A stretch of DNA of 64,000 bases from Patescibacteria group bacterium (GCA_041658665.1 JBAZZR010000003.1:4125-68124); one strand, 5' to 3'. Counted from the stretch's first letter, positions 1,777 to 54,141 are shown. The notes: generated by a model from the letters alone, not told the origin. Made by a program: numbers and translations.

Positions 1777-2029
1777 CAATTCACTCTTGCGCCAAGCTTA
1801 ATTATATATTAAAATCAGTAAAGAAATAAGAGAATACTAGTTATTTTAAAAATCATCCTCAAAACCCTATCAAGGGATATTAGCAATTATTTTTTGAACT
1901 TAAGCTTACTTCGTTAATATCGATTTATTTTCGAAAAATAGTAGAGGAGACCCGGATGGATCTCCTCATTGGATTTAACTCATATTTAGTCCGTAACGAA
2001 TTAAATATCTTGGGGGTGATTTTTAAAAT
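1777..2029 (+). other. 253-nt gene-free leader upstream of the reverse transcriptase (possible structured RNA)
   Basis: No ORF in the track. There is a 7-bp hairpin (gaggaga 1944-1950 / tctcctc 1961-1967, 10-nt loop) and flanking complementary heptamers (ttcgtta 1910-1916 / taacgaa 1994-2000). A near-consensus SD gggggtga (2012-2019) lies 10 nt before the ATG at 2030. Confidence 0.3.
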
Positions 2030-3235
2030 ATGTTTAGTAGAATAATAAGTTATCAGAATATCGAGGCGGCTTATTTAGAAATAATTGAGCAATTCGCGGC
2101 CGACCGACGTAATTTTAGATATCACGGCCTAGATAATATTTTTTTGCACGATCTCGACCTAAAATCTCAAGCAATAATTAAAATTATTCAAACCGACCTC
2201 CAAAAAATTAAAGAAATTGAACCGGCTCTCGCCGTACAAATTCCTAAAAAAAATAAACCGGAGCAATATCGAGAAATTTTTATTTATAACCTTAAGGAGA
2301 GAATAAAGGCGCAAGCTATTTATCGCGTAATCTTACCAATCTTTGAAAATAATTTTTCTGACCGACTTTTTTCTTATCGTCCCGGGAAACCTCCTTATTT
2401 AGCGGCACAGAGCTTTTGTCGTCGCTACCGTCGGGAATTCTCCAAAGATCAGGCTCTCATAATAGATTTAAAAAACTACTCTGATCGGATAAATCGAACG
2501 CTGATGTTTCAGCAGCTGCAAAAAATTATTAGTGACCAAAAAGTTTTAGCGCTTCTCCGTTTATTTATTTTTAATAAAGTCTATCGCCAAGGAAAATACA
2601 CTGATCCCGCCCAGGGACTAGTGCAGGGCGTCCCTTTAATCGCTCTTCTCGCTAACTTATATTTAACGGACTTAGATTTTAAATATCAAACTAAGTCCGC
2701 TTTTTATGTACGGGTTGGCGATGATTTGGCTTTTTTAGATCCCGCTCTCGATAAACTCCAAAAAATACTAGCGACCCTCGCCAACGATTTAACGGCCCGG
2801 GGACTAGAACTTAACCAACAAAAATTATTTTTAGGCGCGGCTCGCGACCAATATTCTTTTTTAGGCTATAATTTCAAAGCCGGACTTATTAGTTTAGAGC
2901 CGGTATTTATTAAAAGGACGATCGCCGACTGGCAAAGAATTTTGACTTATAAAAACGCGCCGCCTGACGCCAAATTAAATTTACTAAGCCGAATAATGAG
3001 CAAGCCAGAAAATAATTTTAACCGACAATTTCAAAAAATAGTAAAAGACAAGTCCCAAATTAATAATTCGGCGCAAATTAAAAAAATATCGGAAAATTTC
3101 TTTGCCATTTTAACTAAGTTTATTTACAAACATTACTCGCCAAGAAATCGCCGGTTATTAGAAGAGAAATTAAAAAATATAAAAATAATGTCTTTATACA
3201 GTATATATAAAAAATTCCATTATGATCGAAATTAA
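2030..3235 (+). CDS. Free-standing reverse transcriptase (RT palm/fingers plus about 120-aa helical C-terminal region)
   Basis: RT motifs in order: IPKKNKPEQYREI (1-2), FSYRPGKPPYLA (3), LIIDLKNYSDRI (4), GLVQGVPLIALLANLYL (5), YVRVGDDLAF (motif C, VGDD at 2714-2725), GLELNQQK (6), FLGYNF (7). No maturase X, endonuclease, DGR SQ or retron VTG motif seen. Confidence 0.85.
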   Translation: MFSRIISYQNIEAAYLEIIEQFAADRRNFRYHGLDNIFLHDLDLKSQAIIKIIQTDLQKIKEIEPALAVQIPKKNKPEQYREIFIYNLKERIKAQAIYRVILPIFENNFSDRLFSYRPGKPPYLAAQSFCRRYRREFSKDQALIIDLKNYSDRINRTLMFQQLQKIISDQKVLALLRLFIFNKVYRQGKYTDPAQGLVQGVPLIALLANLYLTDLDFKYQTKSAFYVRVGDDLAFLDPALDKLQKILATLANDLTARGLELNQQKLFLGAARDQYSFLGYNFKAGLISLEPVFIKRTIADWQRILTYKNAPPDAKLNLLSRIMSKPENNFNRQFQKIVKDKSQINNSAQIKKISENFFAILTKFIYKHYSPRNRRLLEEKLKNIKIMSLYSIYKKFHYDRN

Positions 3236-4940
3236 GGAACAAGTGCGGCTGTTAAAAAAAATTAGAATCAATCGTCATAAACAAGCGACAACCGCCAACT
3301 CGGTCTTACAGTATAATTATTTACTAATGTTTTTTAAAAAACATCAACTAATTATACTAGGCACTATCCTCCTTTTACTAACCCAAGGGATTATTGAAAC
3401 ATCTCTAGTTTTTATTAGTAAAAACCAACTAACTTTTAGCAGCCCAAACATAACTAGTTCTTTTTTTTGGTGGTTATTTATCACTTTTTTCCTTATTTTT
3501 CTGGTTAATTCCTTTGTCGCCATTAGACAGGAAAAGACCGTAGTCGTTCTTTTTATTAATAGTCTTCGCCGACGAATTTTTAAAAATTATCTTGGTAAAT
3601 CATTAAACGGCATGAAAGCAGAGGCCCAAGCCGCTTTAATCGCTAAAATTTCCTACCACCTACCTCTAGTATCCCTAGGCATATCCAATTCATTATTTGG
3701 CTTTATTCGCTGGCTAATCTATTTAACTTCCGCCGTGGTCGTCGCTTCTTTCGCTGGTTTAAATATCTTAGTTATTTTAATAAGCTTTTTATTATTGTCG
3801 ATTATGATCGCCGTCCCCGCCTACTTTATCGCTCAACGCTATATTTCTCAAGAAGTTACTTTCTACTCTCAAATTATTAAATTAATTGATTTAAGCGCCT
3901 CGGAAAAATATTTTCTCAAAAGTTTTAATTTAGAAACAACCACCCTAAAAAAATTCGATCGCCTAGTAGATTTTGACTCTATTTTTCGAATTCGACGAGA
4001 TTTATGGATGAAAATGGGCTTTAAAATAGTCTTCGCTCTTCTTCTGATTATCTCTGTTTTAATTCATCTTTTTCAAAATAATATTACGGCCACTATTAAT
4101 TTAATAAGTCCGGAATTAAAATTTCTCTACGCCTTTCTTCTAATTTATTTATCGCGGGTCGCGACGGAAGCCCTCCGCATCGGTCTTTACTTTTTTCCTG
4201 GTCAATTAGGGTTATCCCTCACTATTACTCCCCAAGGAAAATATCTTCATCGGGCTAACCGCGTCGATATTAAAAAAGAGATTACTTTCTATAGCCGCAA
4301 AATTAAATTATTTAAAACCGGTCGTTATTATCGAAAATTAAGTTTTGACTTTTTAAGAGGCGGCCGCTATCTATTTTATGGTGCTAATCTTTCGGGCAAA
4401 ACCACCTTGGCTAAATTATTCTGGGGTAGCGAGGCTTACCAGTCTAAAGCACTAAAAATAAAAATAGACGGCCACCGTCTAAATTTTTCCGACTATCAGC
4501 GCTTATTTAATAGAGGCTATTTTTTCCAACCCAATTTTTATTCACAAAAAAGCTTGCTAGAATTAATTCTTGGTTTAGACCGAGAAGCCACTGATTTTTC
4601 AGAAATTGACCGCGCTTTAAAAATTATCGCCGCCTATCCATCGTTAGTAGAACTGGTCTCAACTGATAATAACTTTAGCTTAGCGGCCGATAAAATCTGG
4701 AACAACCCCGCAGCAGCCTTTGCCCTACATTCTTTACACTGTCTGGTCAACCGCCCCTCCCTCATTATTATTGATAATCTCTGGCTAGACCTAAATTATC
4801 CCGCTATCAATAAAATACTAAAAATCATCAGCCAAGAACTGCCCGAAGTAATTTTAATTATTTTCGCTAGCCAGGATATTAATCATTTAACTTATAACAA
4901 CCGCTATGACTTGGATAAAAATTTTGAGACAAAAGACTAA
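3222..4940 (+). CDS. ABC exporter-like membrane protein (6 predicted TM helices plus nucleotide-binding domain with degenerate catalytic motifs)
   Basis: Start overlaps the RT stop by 14 nt. Six hydrophobic helices lie in the N-terminal about 330 aa. Walker A GANLSGKT (4380-4403) is intact. The signature is replaced by FSLAA. Walker B reads LIIIDN (Asp 4773-4775, then Asn instead of the catalytic Glu). No H-loop His is seen in IIFASQD. Confidence 0.7.
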   Translation: MIEIKEQVRLLKKIRINRHKQATTANSVLQYNYLLMFFKKHQLIILGTILLLLTQGIIETSLVFISKNQLTFSSPNITSSFFWWLFITFFLIFLVNSFVAIRQEKTVVVLFINSLRRRIFKNYLGKSLNGMKAEAQAALIAKISYHLPLVSLGISNSLFGFIRWLIYLTSAVVVASFAGLNILVILISFLLLSIMIAVPAYFIAQRYISQEVTFYSQIIKLIDLSASEKYFLKSFNLETTTLKKFDRLVDFDSIFRIRRDLWMKMGFKIVFALLLIISVLIHLFQNNITATINLISPELKFLYAFLLIYLSRVATEALRIGLYFFPGQLGLSLTITPQGKYLHRANRVDIKKEITFYSRKIKLFKTGRYYRKLSFDFLRGGRYLFYGANLSGKTTLAKLFWGSEAYQSKALKIKIDGHRLNFSDYQRLFNRGYFFQPNFYSQKSLLELILGLDREATDFSEIDRALKIIAAYPSLVELVSTDNNFSLAADKIWNNPAAAFALHSLHCLVNRPSLIIIDNLWLDLNYPAINKILKIISQELPEVILIIFASQDINHLTYNNRYDLDKNFETKD

Positions 4941-6120
4941 AAAGGGGGATGGCCGTAATTGGCTAGCCCTACTTATTTTTTTCGGACTACCCCTAGTGTT
5001 ACTCATCGGCGGTTTATCTTTAGGCGTAAAATTCTTGCCTTTCTACCAAAAAGCAAAAAATATAATTTTAGAACCGGCCCAAATAATAGAAATTAGCGAA
5101 CCATTTTCTGGTAATTTATATTTTAATGATGAACTCGGCATAGATAACTTTTCCAGCCTAATTATTGCTAACCTCGATACCGCTAAATATAAAATTGAGC
5201 TAGCTATGTATTCCATGGATAGCGCGACTATTGCCGACGCTCTCTATCGCGCCGCCGATCGAGGCGTACTAATTAACTTAATTTTTAGTGATAAACACCA
5301 AGCAATAATTAATAAATTATTTAAAAATCCTCATCAAAATATTACAATTAATTTCCGTAGTTCTGATTTAGGATATATGCATCACAAATTTCTCTTAATT
5401 GATCGCCAGACAACCGCCCCTAAACTATTTTTTAGTTCTTATAATTTCACGAATATCCAAGGGAAATATGATCCTAGTTTTATTTTAGAGACTAGCCGGC
5501 CGGAGTTAGTGGATATTTTTGGACAAGAGTTTGGACGTTTAGCCGCAGGCCAACACGGCGAAGCAAAAAAAGCGACGACTAGTAATCCCTTCGCTGCTCT
5601 AATAAAGTACCCCGAGGGTTTTCTAGAAATTTGGTTCTCGCCGGGAACGGCTCAAAAAAACGTTAAACGCCGTATGTTAAATTTAATTAAAGACTCAAAA
5701 AGTAATATCAAAGTCATGATCTGGACTTTGACCGATAAAGAGATCGCCGCGGCCTTAGTCGCCGCCGCCCAAAAATTACCAGTTAATATTATTACTGATG
5801 ATTCTAATTGGTCGGTGGACAATTCTGTTTTTCCGATTTTAGCGGCGCAGAAAGAAAGACAAAATTTAAATAATCTAGAAATAATTACCGACAGTAAAAA
5901 TAGTGAAGGAATAAATAAACTATATACCGGCAATAGTCTTAATTCGTTCTTGCATCATCATCTGATGATTATTGATGACCAAACCGTGATTTTTGGCACT
6001 AATAATTGGAGCTACAACGGTTTTTCAAAAAACAATGAATCAATCATGATTTCTAATATAGCAAGCCTCACTAGCGCTTTTGAACAATCATACTCAACTA
6101 ACTATAATAAAAATAAATAA
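4906..6120 (+). CDS. Membrane-anchored phospholipase D (HKD) superfamily protein
   Basis: Start overlaps the upstream stop by 35 nt. A basic N-terminus is followed by one TM helix (WLALLIFFGLPLVLLIGGLSLGV). First motif is HHKFLLID (HxKxxxxD, 5380-5403) followed by SSYNFT. Second motif is HHHLMIID (HxHxxxxD, 5953-5976) followed by GTNNWS. Confidence 0.8.
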   Translation: MTWIKILRQKTKKGDGRNWLALLIFFGLPLVLLIGGLSLGVKFLPFYQKAKNIILEPAQIIEISEPFSGNLYFNDELGIDNFSSLIIANLDTAKYKIELAMYSMDSATIADALYRAADRGVLINLIFSDKHQAIINKLFKNPHQNITINFRSSDLGYMHHKFLLIDRQTTAPKLFFSSYNFTNIQGKYDPSFILETSRPELVDIFGQEFGRLAAGQHGEAKKATTSNPFAALIKYPEGFLEIWFSPGTAQKNVKRRMLNLIKDSKSNIKVMIWTLTDKEIAAALVAAAQKLPVNIITDDSNWSVDNSVFPILAAQKERQNLNNLEIITDSKNSEGINKLYTGNSLNSFLHHHLMIIDDQTVIFGTNNWSYNGFSKNNESIMISNIASLTSAFEQSYSTNYNKNK

Positions 6121-6270: not shown

Positions 6271-7401
6271 ATGCCAAAATACCAATATATAATCGAAAAT
6301 AACGATACCCGTCCGGATCAGACTCTCATAATAACGCTTAAGCCCAAGACCAATAAAGATATCTTTAATTTTCAGCCCGGTCAATATGCGATGTTATCTT
6401 TTTATGACAAGGCCGGTAAATTTTTCATCAATCATCCTTTTTCTATCGCCAGTTCACCGACGCAAAAAAATTATTTAAAATTTGGCATAAAAATAATCGG
6501 CCAATTTACACAAAATTTAAAGAATCTCGCTCCTGGGAATAAGGTCGAAGTTTTAGGTCCTTTCGGTAATTTTATTTTTGATGAAACTAAATATCCCGTT
6601 GCCGTATTTATAGCAGGCGGGGTAGGAATAACGCCATTTATGAGCGCTATTAATTACGCGACTGATCGAAACTTGTCCAACCAAATATTCTTATTATATA
6701 GTAACCGGACTATTGCCGGCACTCTTTTTTATGAGGAGATTAAAAAATTAGCCGCTCAAAATCCTCATTTTCATCCTCAACTAAAAATTACTCAAGAACC
6801 AATTAATAATCTTAGTTATTGTGAAAACGGCTATATCACTAAAGAAACAATCACGAAAAATATTCAAGAGCTAGATCATAAAGATTTTTTCCTTTGCGGA
6901 CCGGGACAGTTTATGAAAACGATGGAAAAAAATTTAATTGAACTGGGTGTCCCTAACCACAAAATTCATCAAGAAGCTTTTAATGCTACTCCGAACCTAT
7001 CCCTACGAGAAAATGCTAAAAATATCTCCCTAGTTTACGGCCTGACAGTTGTCTTATTTATTTTTTTTCTAAACTTTATTCAACCCGCTAAAATTAGTTC
7101 GGCAAACGAGTCGGCTAAAATTTTCGAGCCAGCTCCAATTAATCTGATTAACAATGCCGTAAATAATCGGCGCAATGACATTATCAGCTCTAAAAAGTTA
7201 TTGCTTAGCACTATTAGCTCTCTCCTGACTAAAAATATAAATACCAATACTAAACCTACCGCTGGATCAGCGCCAATAACTCAGCCCGCTAAAACTAATC
7301 CCGCGCCCATTATTCAACCCGTTAAAATAGCGACACCAATTATTAAGACCCCGGCTCAAAATCGCGCTCCCGTCGTAACGCCAAGAACTAGGGTCTCTTA
7401 A
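6271..7401 (+). CDS. NOX/ferric-reductase-type FAD/NAD(P)H-binding dehydrogenase domain protein with C-terminal TM helix and P/T/A-rich tail
   Basis: FAD motif HPFSIASSP (from 6433), NAD(P)-binding GGVGITPF and FLCGPG motif. A hydrophobic helix (LVYGLTVVLFIFFLNFI) is followed by a proline/threonine/alanine-rich tail. Confidence 0.7.
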   Translation: MPKYQYIIENNDTRPDQTLIITLKPKTNKDIFNFQPGQYAMLSFYDKAGKFFINHPFSIASSPTQKNYLKFGIKIIGQFTQNLKNLAPGNKVEVLGPFGNFIFDETKYPVAVFIAGGVGITPFMSAINYATDRNLSNQIFLLYSNRTIAGTLFYEEIKKLAAQNPHFHPQLKITQEPINNLSYCENGYITKETITKNIQELDHKDFFLCGPGQFMKTMEKNLIELGVPNHKIHQEAFNATPNLSLRENAKNISLVYGLTVVLFIFFLNFIQPAKISSANESAKIFEPAPINLINNAVNNRRNDIISSKKLLLSTISSLLTKNINTNTKPTAGSAPITQPAKTNPAPIIQPVKIATPIIKTPAQNRAPVVTPRTRVS

Positions 7402-7414
7402 TTATTAAAATATT

Positions 7415-7801
7415 ATGAAAAAAATTAAAAAAATATCAACTTCATTATTACTAATTTTTTTATTCGCGCTGACGAGTCAGCCGATATTAGCTGAAGATGA
7501 TGACTATGACGATTACGAAGAAAATAATTACAGAGAAAATAATGACGATCGGCCAGAAGTAATTTCCGCCGTTGAGGAGACCTCGGCCCCGGTAACACCA
7601 CGAGTATCGACGATTGATGCCCCCGCCGCGACTGGCTTTCTGCCCACAGTAAACATTACTAATAGTTTAATTGATTCCGATCAAGACGGAATCATTGATA
7701 TTTTAGATACTCATCCCGGTGAGGACGACTTTGCCTTTAGGATTCAAGACGCTAATAAAAATGGCCTGATTGATGATTTAGAATATTTAATGAACAAATA
7801 A
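7415..7801 (+). CDS. Small secreted acidic protein with a pair of EF-hand/dockerin-like Ca-binding loops
   Basis: Signal peptide MKKIKKISTSLLLIFLFALTSQPILA, an acidic D/E/Y run, then two 12-residue loops (DSDQDGIIDILD and DANKNGLIDDLE) matching DxDxDGxIxxxD/E. Confidence 0.55.
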   Translation: MKKIKKISTSLLLIFLFALTSQPILAEDDDYDDYEENNYRENNDDRPEVISAVEETSAPVTPRVSTIDAPAATGFLPTVNITNSLIDSDQDGIIDILDTHPGEDDFAFRIQDANKNGLIDDLEYLMNK

Positions 7802-7807
7802 TCTAAT

Positions 7808-8749
7808 ATGCAGGCCTATAAAAAAATCCAGGCTCTGGGCACCGAAGTAGAATTTTATTTACAATCTGATTTAAAAATTGACTTAGAGCCAGATTTTTTA
7901 GAACTCAGCCTCTTAATTGATAAATTTGATCAACTATTTAACCGTTTTTCGGCGAGTAGCGAACTAAGTCGATTAAATAAAGCTACAAATAATTTCCAGG
8001 CTAACCCCGAATTAACTAAAATTCTACTAGTAGCCAAAGACTTTTATAATTTAACGGGCGGAATCTTTGACCCTACTATTTTACGAACTTTAGAAGAGCA
8101 GGGATATGACCGAAGCTTTGATTCTTTAGATTTAGGTGGTTCTAACGAACTAATAGAACGCCGACCAAAAACGATTGATTTTAAACAAATAATAATTAAC
8201 GCCGAGAACAATTTTATTACCAAGCCCCCCGAGCTTAAAATAGATTTAGGGGGAATCGGTAAAGGGTATATCGTTGATAAACTCGTTAAACATCTAAAGG
8301 ACAAAGGATATAAAAATTTTTGGATTTCGGCTGGCGGAGACATGTATCTCAGTGGTTTAACGGCCGACGGACAAACTTATCAAATCGGCGTTCAAAACCC
8401 CTTAAAAATCGCTAGCGATTTATTTAATATCGCAATGACGGCTCAAGAGCTGGCGGTCGCCACTTCAGGAATCGCGAAAAGACAATGGTCGGATAAACAC
8501 GGCCACCGCTTTAATCATTTAATTGATCCGCGAACCAGATCTTCGGTAAATAATGGTCTGCTCGCCGCGACGGTTATTTCTGATCAAGTAGTGAAGGCGG
8601 ATATTTATGCTAAAACAATCTTAATTTTAGGAGAAAAAGAGGGAATTAGTTTCATTGACCAGCAAGAAAATAGCGAAGCTCTCATTATCGATCGGAATTT
8701 AAAAGTTAGTTTGTCAAAAAATATGAATAAATATTTAACAAAAATCTAA
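7808..8749 (+). CDS. apbE: FAD:protein FMN transferase (ApbE family)
   Basis: ApbE-like motifs FDPT, DLGGIGKGY, ISAGGD, VATSGI and HLIDPRT. About 310 aa, typical of the family. Confidence 0.8.
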   Translation: MQAYKKIQALGTEVEFYLQSDLKIDLEPDFLELSLLIDKFDQLFNRFSASSELSRLNKATNNFQANPELTKILLVAKDFYNLTGGIFDPTILRTLEEQGYDRSFDSLDLGGSNELIERRPKTIDFKQIIINAENNFITKPPELKIDLGGIGKGYIVDKLVKHLKDKGYKNFWISAGGDMYLSGLTADGQTYQIGVQNPLKIASDLFNIAMTAQELAVATSGIAKRQWSDKHGHRFNHLIDPRTRSSVNNGLLAATVISDQVVKADIYAKTILILGEKEGISFIDQQENSEALIIDRNLKVSLSKNMNKYLTKI

Positions 8750-9588
8750 TGTTTAAAACTAATAAATTATTGATCGTGACGATCACCTTAATTTTCTTCA
8801 GTAATTTTTTCTTACCGGCGACTCTACTAGCGGAAAATGTCATTTATGCTACCTCGGCTAAAGACAGTGATTACGACGGCTTAACTGATCAGGGTGAAAT
8901 TCAAATTTATAAAACAAATCCACAAAATCCCGATTCTGATAGTGACTCCTATTTAGACGGCGCCGAAATTTTAGCCGGCACTAATCCTTTAGATCCAAAC
9001 AGCCCCCAAATAGTCTCCACCACCGATCTTAATTTAAGTAAGACTAGCGTTCCGGCGACTAGTCTTTGGCCTTGGTTCGTGGCGCGTGCTTCTGGTATAG
9101 TTAGCTACCTTCTCCTTTTTTTACTAATAGTTTCTGGTAGCGGCATAAAAACTTCATCATTATTTCGTTTAGTGAGTCCAACGACGGCTTGGTTAAATCA
9201 CCGCTATTTAGGAATCGCTTTGACATTTTCGACGTTGATTCATTTGGGCTCACTTTTGACTGATAATTTTTTAAAATTTACTGTTATTGATATCCTAGTC
9301 CCCTTCATTTCTAGTTTTAAACCTTTATATTTATCGCTAGGCATCATCGGTTTTTATCTGTTTTTAGCCATAATTATTTTCTCGATCTTTTATATGAATA
9401 AACTCCCTAAAATCTGGCGCGTGCTTCATTATTTAACCTATCCCGCCTTTATTATCCTCTTCATTCATGGCTATTTTATCGGTACCGACACAACGACAAA
9501 TTTAATGCAGTTAATCTATCTGACCACGGGGATTATAGTCGCCTTACAATTTTCTTATCGTCTATATTTTTCCTATAAACAACACTAA
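8749..9588 (+). CDS. Ferric-reductase-like (NOX/MsrQ superfamily) di-heme transmembrane domain protein with N-terminal extracellular thrombospondin-type-3-like Ca-binding repeats
   Basis: The ATG shares one nt with the apbE stop (taATG). Signal/anchor, then DSDYDGLTDQGE and NPDSDSDSYLDGAEILAGTNPLDPNS. TM helices carry His pairs spaced 14 residues (His codons at 9199 and 9241) and 13 residues (9427 and 9466). Confidence 0.7.
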   Translation: MFKTNKLLIVTITLIFFSNFFLPATLLAENVIYATSAKDSDYDGLTDQGEIQIYKTNPQNPDSDSDSYLDGAEILAGTNPLDPNSPQIVSTTDLNLSKTSVPATSLWPWFVARASGIVSYLLLFLLIVSGSGIKTSSLFRLVSPTTAWLNHRYLGIALTFSTLIHLGSLLTDNFLKFTVIDILVPFISSFKPLYLSLGIIGFYLFLAIIIFSIFYMNKLPKIWRVLHYLTYPAFIILFIHGYFIGTDTTTNLMQLIYLTTGIIVALQFSYRLYFSYKQH

Positions 9589-9614
9589 TCAAAGAATAAA
9601 AACGGCCGCTTAAT

Positions 9615-10832
9615 ATGAATAAAAAACTGATAATATTATTAACCGTTTTTATCGATGTGTTAGGAATCGGAATAATTATTCCTGTTTTACCTTTTTATGT
9701 TGAGTCTTTTGGGGCTTCGGCCTTTACAGTAACTTTATTATTTACCGTTTTTTCTTTTTTTGCTTTTTTCAGCGCTCCTTTTTTAGGAGCCTTGTCCGAC
9801 AAAATTGGTCGCCGCCCTGTTCTTATTATTAGTATTTTCAGCACCGCCTTAGGTTGGTTAATTTTTGCCGCCGCTCCCTCCATTATATGGCTCTTTATTG
9901 GGCGTATTGTTGACGGCGCCGCCGCCGGTAATTTTCCGATTGCCCAGAGCTATTTAATCGATATTGCTAAAGATGAAAAAGAAAAAACTAGTAATCTCGG
10001 ACTAATTGGCGCGATTTTCGGTGTCGGTCTTATTATTGGGCCGGCTCTGGGCGGTTTCTTAAGCTCCCTATTTTTAAGCCTACCATTTTGGATAGTCGGC
10101 GGACTCTCCCTTTTTAACGGCCTATTAGCTATTCTCAATTTACCCGAGACTAAAATTAATAAAAACAAAAATCAAACCCTAGAATTTAACCCATTCAAAC
10201 CTCTAATCAAGGCCTTAAACAATAAAGAATTACGCTCCGACTTTATCGCCTGGTTTTTAATGGGGTTCGCTTTGGCTAGCCAACAATCAGTTTTTTCTTT
10301 ATATTTGAGTGACAAATTCTTTTTAAGTTCTGTTATCGTCGGCCTCTTTATGACCGGTAGCGGCATTATCCTGATTTTCAATCAGGCTTTTGCTCTGAAG
10401 CAAATTTGGTTAAAATATTTTTCTGAAAAGGCCCTGGCGGTGGGTTTAATGCCAGTGATTGCTTTAGGATTTTTTCTAATGGGCTTACCATATATCCAAA
10501 TTTTTATTTTAGGTGTTCTATTTATTAGTTTAGCTCAATCTATTTTACGAGCAGTTATGACAAGTAGAGTAGCCGCCAAGGCGGGGGAGGGAAATCATGG
10601 AGCAATACTGGGCGTCATGAATTCGGTAATGTCGCTAGCTATGATTATCGGCCCCATCGCCGCTGGCTGGCTTTACGGCTGGGAAGAAAATTATCCCTTT
10701 TGGTTAAGCGCGCTGGCTAGCTTTATGGCTTTTTTAATATTAATTCGTAGCTATCGTCATCAGACGGAGAAAAACTTTGATTTAACTGATGAAGAACTAA
10801 TATTAGGAGAACAAAAAATTGAATTATCCTAA
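9615..10832 (+). CDS. MFS transporter (drug:H+ antiporter / TetA-like)
   Basis: About 12 hydrophobic helices and MFS motif A (GALSDKIGRRPVL) between TM2 and TM3. Confidence 0.8.
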   Translation: MNKKLIILLTVFIDVLGIGIIIPVLPFYVESFGASAFTVTLLFTVFSFFAFFSAPFLGALSDKIGRRPVLIISIFSTALGWLIFAAAPSIIWLFIGRIVDGAAAGNFPIAQSYLIDIAKDEKEKTSNLGLIGAIFGVGLIIGPALGGFLSSLFLSLPFWIVGGLSLFNGLLAILNLPETKINKNKNQTLEFNPFKPLIKALNNKELRSDFIAWFLMGFALASQQSVFSLYLSDKFFLSSVIVGLFMTGSGIILIFNQAFALKQIWLKYFSEKALAVGLMPVIALGFFLMGLPYIQIFILGVLFISLAQSILRAVMTSRVAAKAGEGNHGAILGVMNSVMSLAMIIGPIAAGWLYGWEENYPFWLSALASFMAFLILIRSYRHQTEKNFDLTDEELILGEQKIELS

Positions 10833-18754: not shown

Positions 18755-18771
18755 AATATTTATTTAAAAAA

Positions 18772-18797
18772 AGCGTTGTTTCAACAACGCTTTTTTT
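18772..18797. terminator. Rho-independent terminator between convergent genes (bidirectional)
   Basis: Stem agcgttg 18772-18778 / caacgct 18785-18791, T-run 18791-18797, with an A-run upstream serving the opposite strand. Confidence 0.8.
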
Positions 18798-18827
18798 AAA
18801 AAGAACAAATTTAAATTTAAAGAACTA

Positions 18828-54081: not shown

Positions 54082-54106
54082 ACAAACACTATATTTAACT
54101 TAAACT

Positions 54107-54141
54107 AAAATAACCCTTATAAAGGGTTATTTTAGTTTTTT
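54107..54141 (+). terminator. Rho-independent terminator after rpmA
   Basis: 12-bp stem aaaataaccctt 54107-54118 / aagggttatttt 54122-54133, then T-run 54136-54141. Confidence 0.8.

What the first reader, a model, noticed from the sequence alone, without database searches (positions are those of the whole stretch)
1777..6120. Translationally coupled cassette: free-standing reverse transcriptase + degenerate ABC-exporter-like protein + membrane-anchored PLD enzyme
SEEN:
- Three + strand ORFs are chained by overlaps. The RT stop at 3235 overlaps the next start at 3222 by 14 nt. That ORF's stop at 4940 overlaps the next start at 4906 by 35 nt.
- Neither downstream start has its own SD. The first ORF has a near-consensus SD (gggggtga 2012-2019) after a 253-nt gene-free leader.
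- ORF1 carries RT motifs 1-7 and an extra helical tail of about 120 aa. It has no maturase or endonuclease domain. There is no room for intron RNA downstream because the next gene overlaps. It lacks the DGR-type SQ motif and the retron VTG motif.
- ORF2 is a 6-TM ABC-exporter fold that keeps only Walker A.
- ORF3 is an N-terminally anchored two-HKD PLD-family protein.

ESTABLISHED: Free-standing RTs in operons with ATPase, transmembrane or nuclease/PLD-fold partners are the architecture of defence-associated RTs (retron effector modules, DRT and UG/Abi classes). PLD-fold proteins recur as nuclease or phospholipase effectors.

INFERENCE: The trio is a candidate RT-driven, membrane-associated module (anti-phage/abortive infection, or envelope or extracellular nucleic-acid processing). 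I cannot match this composition to a described type.

CAVEAT: The basic N-terminus of ORF3 predicts the PLD domain faces outward. That fits a secreted nuclease or lipid enzyme better than a cytoplasmic effector.
Basis: partly seen in the sequence, partly recalled or inferred. Interest (0 to 1): 0.85.

Follow-up and report, generated by a model that had tools for sequence, protein, structure and literature searches.

The report
ncRNA–RT–pseudo-ABC–PLD module of Patescibacteria
A small group of ultra-small (CPR/Patescibacteria) bacteria carries an apparently undescribed four-part cassette (a structured RNA, a reverse transcriptase, a disabled ABC-exporter-like membrane protein and a membrane-anchored PLD nuclease-like enzyme predicted to face outward); it looks like a new RNA-templated reverse-transcriptase system acting at the cell envelope.

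Summary
The three overlapping + strand ORFs are real, at the stated coordinates. They form an obligate module. In 43 of 45 species-level genomes that encode the ABC-like protein, RT, ABC-like and PLD are colinear; the two exceptions are contig ends. This holds down to 26-35% identity and in unrelated neighbourhoods.

The main new finding is that the "gene-free leader" is a fourth component. It is a ~190-nt structured ncRNA (window 1840-2029) with a 19-bp closing helix, a pseudoknot and a hypervariable hairpin region. Covariation is strong: 53 of 55 pairs carry compensatory changes. The ncRNA is found only in RT-positive genomes, is tandemly duplicated in five loci, and has no Rfam match.

- **RT:** a full-length group-II-intron-like enzyme (fingers, palm, thumb) with no intron RNA around it.
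- **ORF2:** a type IV ABC-exporter fold with a pseudo-NBD.
- **ORF3:** a tandem Nuc/Zucchini-type PLD whose second motif is HxH.

The family is rare, patchy and seen only in Patescibacteria. It is absent from viral contigs and does not sit in defence islands.

Best reading (inferred, not shown): an ncRNA-templated RT module coupled to a membrane effector pair, acting in defence or envelope nucleic-acid processing. I found no description of it in the searched literature.

The parts
1840..2029 (+). Structured ncRNA of ~190 nt. P1 closing helix 1844-1862 / 2010-2028 (the 3' arm holds GGGGGTGA). P2 1865-1867 / 1874-1876. Pseudoknot 1877-1882 (ATATTA) with the P5 loop 1915-1920 (TAATAT). P4 1886-1898 / 1930-1942. 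Variable hairpin P6 1944-1967. Conserved single strand 1968-1981. P7 hairpin 1982-2008.
   Evidence: MFE -60.1 kcal/mol, z -3.96. Models R1 and R2 score 176 and 165 bits here. On 37 sequences 91.6% of cells pair against 36-45% in slid controls, and 53 of 55 pairs show double changes. The pseudoknot was not in the model, yet 98% of its cells pair and 5 of 6 pairs covary. One copy in the genome. No Rfam family.
2030..3235 (+). Group-II-intron-like (G2L-type) reverse transcriptase, 401 aa. Active-site box is R-V-G-D-D (residues 228-232). D146 and Y150 correspond to the first catalytic Asp and the steric gate.
   Evidence: RVT_1 2e-17. TIGR04416 group_II_RT_mat 2.5e-36, but 125 bits against a cutoff of 300, and only profile positions 17-269 of 353. 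PDB GsI-IIC RT 3e-20. AF2 pLDDT 92.5. Foldseek full-length match to GsI-IIC RT, TM 0.75. Catalytic residues invariant in 49 homologues.
3222..4940 (+). Type IV ABC-exporter-fold half-transporter with a pseudo-NBD, 572 aa (6 TM helices plus a degenerate nucleotide-binding domain).
   Evidence: ABC_tran 1e-4, 23.2 bits, below the cutoff of 25. AF2 pLDDT 90.1. Foldseek MsbA, TM287/288, TAP, PglK, McjD and HlyB, TM up to 0.72 at 12-15% identity. Catalytic Glu in 2 of 52, no signature motif, no H-loop His. The most conserved residues are in the TMD: K142, Y145, H146, D252, R256, R259, G321, G330.
4906..6120 (+). N-terminally membrane-anchored tandem PLD (Nuc/Zucchini-type) phosphodiesterase, 404 aa. 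Motif 1 is HHKFLLID...SSYN and motif 2 is HHHLMIID...GTNN. The catalytic part is predicted to be extracytoplasmic.
   Evidence: PLDc_2 2.1e-33 in two stretches. NucT models to 8e-20 and DrmC 2.8e-19. Profile against PDB: NucT 2.4e-15, Zucchini/MitoPLD 5e-15, Nuc 1.4e-11. H159, K161, D166, H350, H352 and D357 are invariant. Topology follows the positive-inside rule (inference).

Best explanation
Window 1840-6120 is one accessory four-part module with an RNA part and a membrane part.

Shown:
- The four parts always occur together, in this order, with overlapping coding genes.
- The ncRNA has a conserved scaffold (closing helix, pseudoknot, 3' hairpin) around a hypervariable hairpin region.
- The RT keeps all polymerase residues and a dNTP-selecting steric-gate Tyr.
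- The ABC-like protein has lost ATPase catalytic motifs but keeps a strongly conserved transmembrane domain.
- The PLD belongs to the nuclease branch of its superfamily.

Inferred mechanism:
1. The RT binds the ncRNA scaffold and forms an RNP, as retron, DRT2 and DRT9 RTs do with their RNAs and group II RTs with their introns.
2. It copies part of the RNA into cDNA. The variable hairpin region is the best candidate template.
3. In the window's subgroup, folding of P1 also buries the ribosome-binding site, so RNA folding or RT binding would limit RT translation.
4. The RNP or its cDNA acts on the cytoplasmic pseudo-NBD and basic vestibule of the ABC-like dimer.
5. That dimer works with the PLD phosphodiesterase, whose catalytic domain is predicted to sit on the outer face of the membrane. 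It could gate or activate the PLD, or hand it a substrate.

The net function is most likely conflict-related: anti-phage or abortive infection, or destruction of incoming nucleic acid at the envelope.
For: - **Obligate synteny:** 8 of 8 genus loci and 43 of 45 loci found through the ABC-like protein are colinear. The two exceptions are cut by contig ends.
- **ncRNA structure:**. One search gives 53 of 55 pairs with compensatory changes, and the pseudoknot covaries although it was not in the model.
- **ncRNA and RT co-occur:** the ncRNA is in 7 of 61 relatives, all RT-positive, and in 0 of 52 RT-negative genomes.
- **Stand-alone RNA features:** tandem ncRNA copies share the scaffold but differ in the variable hairpins (L027, L030, L037, L040, L045). 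Some loci have a terminator-like hairpin plus T-run between ncRNA and RT. In L029 the ncRNA lies 2 kb from the RT.
- **RT competence and kinship:**
- **Pseudo-ABC:**
- **PLD nuclease kinship:**
- **Accessory character:** 8 of 36 genus genomes carry it. At least three genomes hold two divergent copies: G008, plus the record pairs behind L025/L042 and L040/L046. It was in 0 of 400 in a phylum-wide draw. The closest relative has a nonsense codon in its ABC-like gene.
- **Precedent:** ncRNA plus RT plus membrane effector is a described pattern (UG17/DRT10 with SLATT proteins; retrons with transmembrane effectors; PMC9226505, PMC7736814).
Against: - No expression, cDNA or phenotype data exist for this system.
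- Flanking genes are mostly housekeeping or envelope genes. There is no defence island and no integrase.
- An outward-facing nuclease-type PLD is an odd effector for a cytoplasmic RNP.
- A pseudo-NBD cannot drive classical transport.
- Several extra neighbours (the ~195-aa anchored protein, cupredoxin-like proteins, pilin-like genes) point to an envelope function rather than classical abortive infection.
- Which RNA segment, if any, is the template is unknown.
Confidence: 0.5

Rival explanations
1. The RNA is only a cis-acting 5' leader. It would be an autoregulatory RT-binding site or riboswitch-like element that sequesters the ribosome-binding site, as the Ll.LtrB group II intron RT does at DIVa. 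The RT would then work on other templates: cellular or foreign RNA, or template-independent or protein-primed synthesis.
For: In the window's subgroup the 3' arm of P1 contains GGGGGTGA 10 nt before the ATG, and the RNA ends 0-3 nt before the start codon. The RT is group-II-like. That family's autoregulation at the ORF start is established knowledge, recalled here and not tested.
Against: Tandem ncRNA copies exist, and the upstream copy is not attached to an RT ORF (L027, L030, L037, L040, L045). In L029 two genes lie between the ncRNA and the RT. In group B loci a terminator-like hairpin or 8-70 nt separates P1 from the ATG, and P1 there carries no SD-like run at a useful distance. A hypervariable insert inside a conserved scaffold is not expected for a simple regulatory leader.
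Confidence: 0.2
2. The module is a housekeeping-like envelope nucleic-acid pathway rather than immunity. It could process DNA or RNA at the cell surface for uptake or nucleotide scavenging (with type IV pili), or export an RT product through the ABC-like protein to be trimmed by the outward PLD nuclease.
For: The PLD is predicted to be outside. Its closest solved relative is NucT, which to my recollection supports natural transformation (not checked here). Group B loci add further anchored, predicted extracytoplasmic proteins. Pilin-like genes lie next to 7 of 44 loci, and in L029 between the ncRNA and the RT. Their density is about tenfold that of the own genome, a rough comparison. The loci are not in defence islands.
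Against: The module is present in only about a fifth of genus genomes and was not found in 400 other genomes of the phylum. It is pseudogenised in the nearest relative. It occurs in divergent double copies. These are traits of accessory, conflict-driven genes. The NBD lacks catalytic residues for active transport. I know of no nucleic-acid-transporting type IV ABC exporter.
Confidence: 0.2
3. The locus is a decayed group II intron or another mobile retroelement, with the ABC-like and PLD genes as passengers or chance neighbours.
For: The RT is closest to group II intron RTs by sequence and fold.
Against: No group II intron RNA family is found in the window. The next gene overlaps the RT stop, leaving no room for domains V-VI. 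The upstream RNA is ~190 nt and matched no group II intron RNA family in Rfam. The same three proteins co-occur in 43 of 45 loci at 26-94% identity. The genome has a single copy. No flanking integrase or transposase appeared among the most frequent neighbour families.
Confidence: 0.03

Closest known systems
Group II intron RTs and group-II-like (G2L) free-standing RTs (e.g. GsI-IIC RT, G2L4)
   Same: Best sequence and fold matches: TIGR04416 2.5e-36, PDB GsI-IIC 3e-20, Foldseek full-length TM 0.75. The N-terminal extension, fingers, palm, thumb and C-terminal helices are arranged alike. There is no RNase H or endonuclease domain. The RT stands free without intron RNA, which is how G2L is defined in PMC8632793.
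   Different: It scores far below the group II equivalog cutoff (125 against 300 bits). The YADD box is replaced by VGDD. It matches solved G2L4 only weakly (4e-6). It always comes with its own ncRNA, an ABC-like protein and a PLD, an association that is not mentioned in the two RT surveys read (PMC8632793, PMC9226505).
Retrons (msr-msd ncRNA + RT + effector)
   Same: A structured ncRNA lies immediately upstream of the RT. It is closed by a long helix formed by its two ends (like a1/a2) and carries a variable hairpin region. Effector genes follow in the same operon. Some retrons use membrane effectors.
   Different: The RT is not of the retron clade (Ec86 3e-3; LGY instead of VTG). The conserved junction after the 5' arm is AAAAC, with no conserved branching G. 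There is a pseudoknot. The effectors are of other families.
DRT systems with ncRNA (DRT2, DRT9, DRT10/UG17 + SLATT)
   Same: A domesticated RT plus a dedicated ncRNA, and in DRT10 a membrane protein partner. DRT9 and DRT2 RTs appear among the fold matches. The best UG profile is UG26 at 2.4e-32.
   Different: UG profiles match only the RT core (46-289 of 398 for UG26) and score below a generic RT model in the same library (131.8 bits). The RT C-terminus aligns with the group II RT rather than with the UG26 profile. Partner proteins differ. The system is not in defence islands. It is seen only in Patescibacteria.
Type IV ABC exporters (MsbA, TM287/288, TAP, PglK, McjD, HlyB)
   Same: Whole-chain fold match (TM up to 0.72): a six-helix TMD with long intracellular extensions plus an NBD.
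   Different: 12-15% identity. The catalytic Glu, the LSGGQ signature, the Q-loop Gln and the H-loop His are lost. The Walker A Lys is kept in only 37 of 52 relatives. Conservation is concentrated in the TMD.
Nuc / NucT / Zucchini (MitoPLD) and DISARM DrmC PLD nucleases
   Same: Both halves match single-HKD nuclease-type PLD domains. Zucchini, like this protein, is held on a membrane by an N-terminal helix.
   Different: Two domains are fused in one chain instead of forming a homodimer. The second motif is HxH, not HxK. The domain is predicted to be extracytoplasmic. No DISARM partners (DrmA, DrmB, DrmD, DrmMI) were matched among the five genes of the window scanned with PADLOC.

Membership tests
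Group II intron (mobile retroelement) | RT of the group II intron type | tested here: inconclusive
   This is the closest family by sequence and fold. The score is 125.6 bits against an equivalog cutoff of 300, and only the RT core of the profile is matched.
Group II intron (mobile retroelement) | Ribozyme domains I-VI flanking the ORF | tested here: not met
   Rfam 15 gives no Intron_gpII or group-II-D1D4 hit in the window at gathering, nor at E<=10 in 1700-2100. The ABC-like gene overlaps the RT stop.
G2L (group-II-like free-standing RTs, broad sense) | RT nearest to group II RTs but lacking intron RNA | tested here: met
   Placement in a named G2L clade was not tested, because no G2L profiles are on hand. 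Solved G2L4 matches at only 4e-6.
Retron | RT of the retron clade (VTG in motif 7, retron-specific region) | tested here: not met
   Motif 7 is F-L-G-Y. Retron Ec86 RT matches at 3e-3, against 3e-20 for a group II RT.
Retron | ncRNA next to the RT, closed by terminal inverted repeats, with a conserved branching G | tested here: inconclusive
   The closing helix and adjacency are present. The conserved junction after the 5' arm is AAAAC, with no conserved G.
Retron | Production of branched msDNA | not testable with these tools
   No RNA runs or raw reads are available.
UG/Abi DRT (nearest: UG26) | Full-length match to a UG group profile and its typical partners | tested here: not met
   UG26 matches at 2.4e-32 but only over profile positions 46-289 of 398, scoring below a generic RT model. 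The UG26 partner reported in PMC9226505 is a Vsr-like endonuclease, not an ABC-like protein or a PLD.
DGR | RT with SQ in motif 4, plus template and variable repeats | tested here: not met
   Motif 4 is L-V-Q-G-V-P. Template and variable repeats were not searched for.
ABC transporter (functional ATPase) | Walker A, Walker B with catalytic Glu, LSGGQ signature, H-loop | tested here: not met
   The window protein has Walker A (GANLSGKT) and the Walker B Asp, followed by Asn. In 52 relatives Glu occurs in 2. There is no signature motif and no H-loop His. ABC_tran scores 23.2 bits, below the cutoff of 25.
ABC transporter type IV exporter fold | 6-TM domain-swapped TMD plus NBD architecture | tested here: met
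   AF2 pLDDT 90.1. Foldseek MsbA and TM287/288, TM 0.68-0.72 over about 555-570 columns. Domain swapping in a dimer was not modelled.
PLD superfamily (HKD) | Two HxK(x)4D(x)6G(S/T)xN motifs | tested here: inconclusive
   Motif 1 is intact and invariant. Motif 2 has His in place of Lys in all 9 homologues (HxH(x)4D...GTxN). PLDc_2 matches at 2.1e-33 in two stretches.
DISARM | DrmC together with DrmA, DrmB and a methylase or DrmD | tested here: not met
   Only DrmC-like PLD similarity was found. The DEAD-box neighbour is a CshA/DbpA-type RNA helicase. No other Drm proteins were matched among the five genes of the window scanned with PADLOC.

The most novel reading that the evidence does not exclude
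This would be a reverse-transcriptase system whose output acts outside the cytoplasm. The RT copies the variable cassette of its ncRNA into cDNA. The pseudo-ABC exporter passes the cDNA, or a signal from it, across the membrane. The outward-facing PLD nuclease, with the extra anchored proteins or pili of some loci, then uses or processes it at the cell surface. That would make it an RT-driven envelope or extracellular nucleic-acid pathway specific to episymbiotic CPR bacteria.
Probability: 0.15. Interest if true: 0.95.

Novelty: new variant of a known kind. Interest (0 to 1): 0.8.

Why it matters
Domesticated reverse transcriptases with dedicated ncRNAs (retrons, DRT2, DRT9, DRT10) have recently revealed unexpected biochemistry and useful tools. 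This module adds several things:

- a new, well-defined RNA family, pseudoknotted and carrying an exchangeable variable cassette;
- a compact group-II-like RT;
- an effector pair not described with RTs in the surveys read: a catalytically dead ABC exporter fold and a PLD nuclease predicted to face outward.

It occurs in Patescibacteria, where few defence or nucleic-acid-handling systems have been characterised. It gives a concrete, testable case of a pseudo-ABC protein recruited as a signalling or gating partner. The conserved scaffold with a variable insert also suggests a programmable template RNA.

Tried and rejected
- **Complex prediction of RT with the ABC-like protein:** no verdict. Nothing can be drawn from it.
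- **The look-up of sequencing runs:** no RNA holder is listed. Only Logan contigs are held (one landfill metagenome that may be the source, plus small shares in groundwater runs). I therefore did not use read laying, and expression and cDNA could not be examined.
- **Rfam at gathering and at E<=10:** only chance-level hits for the leader.
- **Literature searches and two RT surveys:** no description of an RT, ABC-like and PLD association or of this ncRNA. This is absence in the searched library, not proof of novelty.
- **Empty-site comparison:** abandoned. The GTDB genus is so divergent (the FNR-like neighbour is at 34-39% identity) that synteny is lost. Only G003 and L025 keep the DEAD-box helicase upstream.
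- **tRNA adjacency as an integration signal:** a tRNA lies within 800 nt upstream of the ncRNA in only 4 loci, so I rejected it as a general feature.
- **Viral contigs:** no relative of the ABC-like protein.
- **PADLOC and Pfam on 98 flanking proteins:** no enrichment of defence families. One RT-associated MBL-like neighbour and 2-3 Fic proteins were seen.
- **Weak R1 hits at window 18762-18803 and 54104-54139 (E 0.085 and 0.41):** AT-rich noise, not recovered by R2.
- **Minus-strand model hits at the same places:** these come from the near-palindromic helices and score far lower.
Full report
**Observation**

The window holds three + strand ORFs at 2030-3235, 3222-4940 and 4906-6120. They overlap by 14 and 35 nt. 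The sequence just before the two internal ATGs has no purine-rich SD-like run. GGGGGTGA lies at 2012-2019. Upstream is a CshA/DbpA-type DEAD-box RNA helicase (403-1776). Downstream are an FNR-like reductase, ApbE, a ferric-reductase-like membrane protein, an MFS transporter and UvrB. The genome is about 1.03 Mb in 6 contigs. Named relatives of the RT are Patescibacteria (Falkowbacteria, Magasanikbacteria).

**The trio is an obligate module**

- Full-length relatives of the RT occur in 8 of 36 genomes of the same GTDB genus, twice in one of them.
- In all eight fetched loci the ABC-like and PLD genes follow in the same order, again as overlapping ORFs.
- I then searched 185,579 species genomes with the ABC-like protein, the least common part. 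This gave 45 loci, and every record whose title names a lineage names Patescibacteria or a CPR group, apart from catch-all labels.
- The RT lies upstream and the PLD downstream in 43 of them. The two exceptions end at a contig edge. Identities fall to 26-35%.
- The flanks differ from locus to locus. Only G003 and L025 share the helicase neighbour.
- An exhaustive profile search of 1.8 billion representatives found about 90-106 clusters of this ABC-like family, then a sharp drop to ordinary ABC exporters.
- The module is rare. It was found in none of 400 other genomes drawn across the phylum, although only the three best candidates per genome were scored. It was also absent from IMG/VR viral contigs.

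**The leader is a structured ncRNA**

- The region upstream of the RT is more conserved than expected from proteins that are 68% identical, and it shows visibly compensatory hairpins. It folds well below shuffled controls (z -3.96).
- Upstream regions of 40 loci share one architecture across both RT subgroups.
- I built a covariance model from eight close sequences with a structure I specified. It found the element in front of the RT in distant loci. A second model, built from 17 hits, found it in about 36 loci.
- On 37 sequences, 91.6% of cells pair, against 36-45% when partners are slid. Of 55 pairs, 53 show double changes. The nested alignment is fitted to the model, so that count leans towards the structure.
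- The pseudoknot was not part of the model. It joins the strand after P2 to the loop of hairpin P5 and is a cleaner test: 98% of cells pair, 5 of 6 pairs covary (for example A-U 17 against G-C 17), and slid controls on the 17-sequence alignment give 17-56%.
- In the window the RNA spans 1840-2029.
- Between the conserved P4 helix and a conserved single strand lies a region of one to three hairpins. It varies from 13 to 128 nt with no sequence conservation.
- Five loci carry two tandem copies with near-identical scaffolds but different variable hairpins.
- Several group B loci have a GC-rich hairpin and a T-run between the RNA and the RT start.
- In L029 two pilin-like genes separate the RNA from the RT.
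- Among 61 relatives the RNA is found in 7 genomes, all RT-positive and each time directly upstream of the RT. It is found in none of the 52 RT-negative genomes. The eighth RT-positive genome has only 115 nt of contig upstream.
- The own genome has one copy. Rfam 15 has no matching family.

**The proteins**

*RT.*
- The catalytic Asp residues, R-x-G-D-D, K265 and L-G-Y are invariant. A Tyr at the steric-gate position is nearly so.
- By sequence it is nearest to group II intron RTs: TIGR04416 at 2.5e-36 but far below cutoff, and PDB GsI-IIC at 3e-20. Retron and DRT2/3 matches are much weaker.
- PADLOC UG profiles match only the core.
- The AF2 model (pLDDT 92.5) aligns over its whole length with the GsI-IIC RT. 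G2L4, DRT9 and DGR RTs follow. The C-terminal helices therefore most likely correspond to the thumb/X region rather than an unrelated tail.
- No group II intron RNA is present. That makes it a G2L-type RT in the broad sense of PMC8632793.

*ABC-like protein.*
- It models confidently (pLDDT 90.1) as a type IV exporter half-transporter. MsbA, TM287/288, TAP, PglK, McjD and HlyB match at TM up to 0.72.
- Across 52 relatives the NBD has lost the catalytic Glu (2 of 52), the signature motif and the H-loop His. It keeps the Walker A Lys in only 37.
- The invariant residues lie in the membrane domain and its cytoplasmic extensions: K142-Y145-H146, D252/R256/R259, G321/G330.

*PLD.*
- It is made of two Nuc-type domains. 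Its best relatives are NucT, Zucchini/MitoPLD and Nuc.
- Motif 1 is intact. Motif 2 is HxH in all homologues.
- Every homologue has a strongly basic N-terminus before one long hydrophobic segment. By the positive-inside rule this places the catalytic part outside the cytoplasm (an inference).

**Context**

- Ninety-eight flanking proteins from 39 loci fall into heterogeneous housekeeping and envelope families. Defence families are not enriched, and no integrases appear among the frequent families.
- Fifteen group B loci encode a further conserved ~195-aa protein. It is N-terminally anchored, has two internal repeats and has no Pfam family. It lies downstream of the PLD in 13 loci and upstream of the ncRNA in 2. 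A cupredoxin-like protein follows it in 7 of these loci; the eighth member of that cluster, in L057, has no ~195-aa neighbour.
- Pilin-like genes are near 7 of 44 loci.
- The nearest relative (94% identity) has a CAA-to-TAG change inside its ABC-like gene.

**Interpretation**

Two points are established. This is a four-part, vertically and patchily inherited accessory module, and its RNA part is under selection for structure.

The rest is inferred by analogy with retrons, DRT2/9/10 and group II RNPs:
- The RT binds the scaffold and copies part of the RNA, most plausibly the variable cassette.
- The RNP or its product acts on a membrane complex of the pseudo-ABC dimer and the PLD.

The patchy distribution, the divergent double copies in ~1-Mb genomes, the pseudogenisation and the variable cassette favour a conflict-type role.

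Other features keep a non-immune envelope nucleic-acid role open. These are the predicted outward PLD, the extra anchored partners, the pilin neighbours and the lack of a defence-island context. I give the templated-RT-plus-membrane-effector model about 0.5. Within it, I cannot separate defence from envelope processing with the data available.

**Comparison and novelty**

The module behaves like the ncRNA-RT-effector systems but fails the membership tests for retrons, UG/DRT groups, DGRs, group II introns and DISARM. The RT qualifies only as G2L in the broad sense. Neither the ncRNA nor the RT, ABC-like and PLD association appears in Rfam 15, PADLOC 2.0, NCBIfam 20 or the papers searched. I rate it a new variant of a known kind.

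Noticed in passing
L013:4804-4884 (G003 orthologue; equals window 3600-3680): The closest relative (94% identity) has CAA changed to TAG in frame inside the ABC-like gene, at the position of window 3627-3629. This splits it into 135-aa and 426-aa ORFs. It is either a pseudogene or a sequencing error.
   Followed up: partly
L027:4312-4500 and 4615-4796; L030:4433-4611 and 4613-4807; L037:4401-4581 and 4594-4791; L040:921-1191 and 1227-1510; L045:4108-4375 and 4412-4704: Tandem ncRNA copies share the scaffold but differ in their variable hairpins. In L027 the first copy is followed by ATG-TTT-CGC-TAG (a remnant of the RT start) and a terminator-like hairpin, and it begins just after a tRNA-Tyr gene.
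   Followed up: partly
L041:8878-9462, L045:8958-9539, L039:3260-3850, L042:3913-4500 and 11 more (alignment A11): Group B loci carry an extra conserved ~195-aa protein with no Pfam family. It has an N-terminal anchor, two internal repeats (NNDYxTW...NF...Y.LL..G) and a C-terminal YSSSR. It lies downstream of the PLD in 13 loci and upstream of the ncRNA in 2. A cupredoxin-like protein follows it in 7 of these loci. It is absent next to the window's cassette.
   Followed up: partly
L029:1602-4797; L031:3552-4622; L021:2472-3773: Type IV pilin-like genes (N_methyl motif) flank the module. In L029 two of three near-identical pilin genes sit between the ncRNA and the RT. Pilin-like ORFs are near 7 of 44 loci, roughly ten times the density in the window's genome, a rough comparison.
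   Followed up: partly
L041, L043, L044, L062, L047, L052 (the 37-68 nt between the ncRNA and the RT ATG): A GC-rich hairpin followed by a T-run lies directly between the ncRNA 3' end and the RT start codon. It suggests the ncRNA can end as a separate transcript with read-through into the RT.
   Followed up: no
window 2714-2725 (RT residues 229-232): The RT active-site box reads V-G-D-D instead of the usual Y/F-x-D-D. G-D-D is invariant in 49 homologues. There is also a weak sub-threshold Pfam hit to Bunya_RdRp at residues 49-112.
   Followed up: no
L037:3452-4315 (- strand); L021:6647-7513 (- strand): A metallo-beta-lactamase-fold gene lies divergently upstream of one subgroup's cassette. In the same neighbour scan one flanking protein matched PADLOC's 'RT-associated MBL' model (4e-21), most likely this gene.
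   Followed up: no
window 6271-10832: Directly downstream of the cassette lies a cluster of an FNR-like flavin reductase, a 128-aa protein with no family, an ApbE flavin transferase, a ferric-reductase-like membrane protein with a TSP3 repeat, and an MFS transporter. This may be a membrane redox module, and it seems unrelated to the finding.
   Followed up: no
L021:12080-17212: No genes are listed in the gene table for the 5 kb downstream of the PLD in this JGI contig. I did not inspect the region.
   Followed up: no
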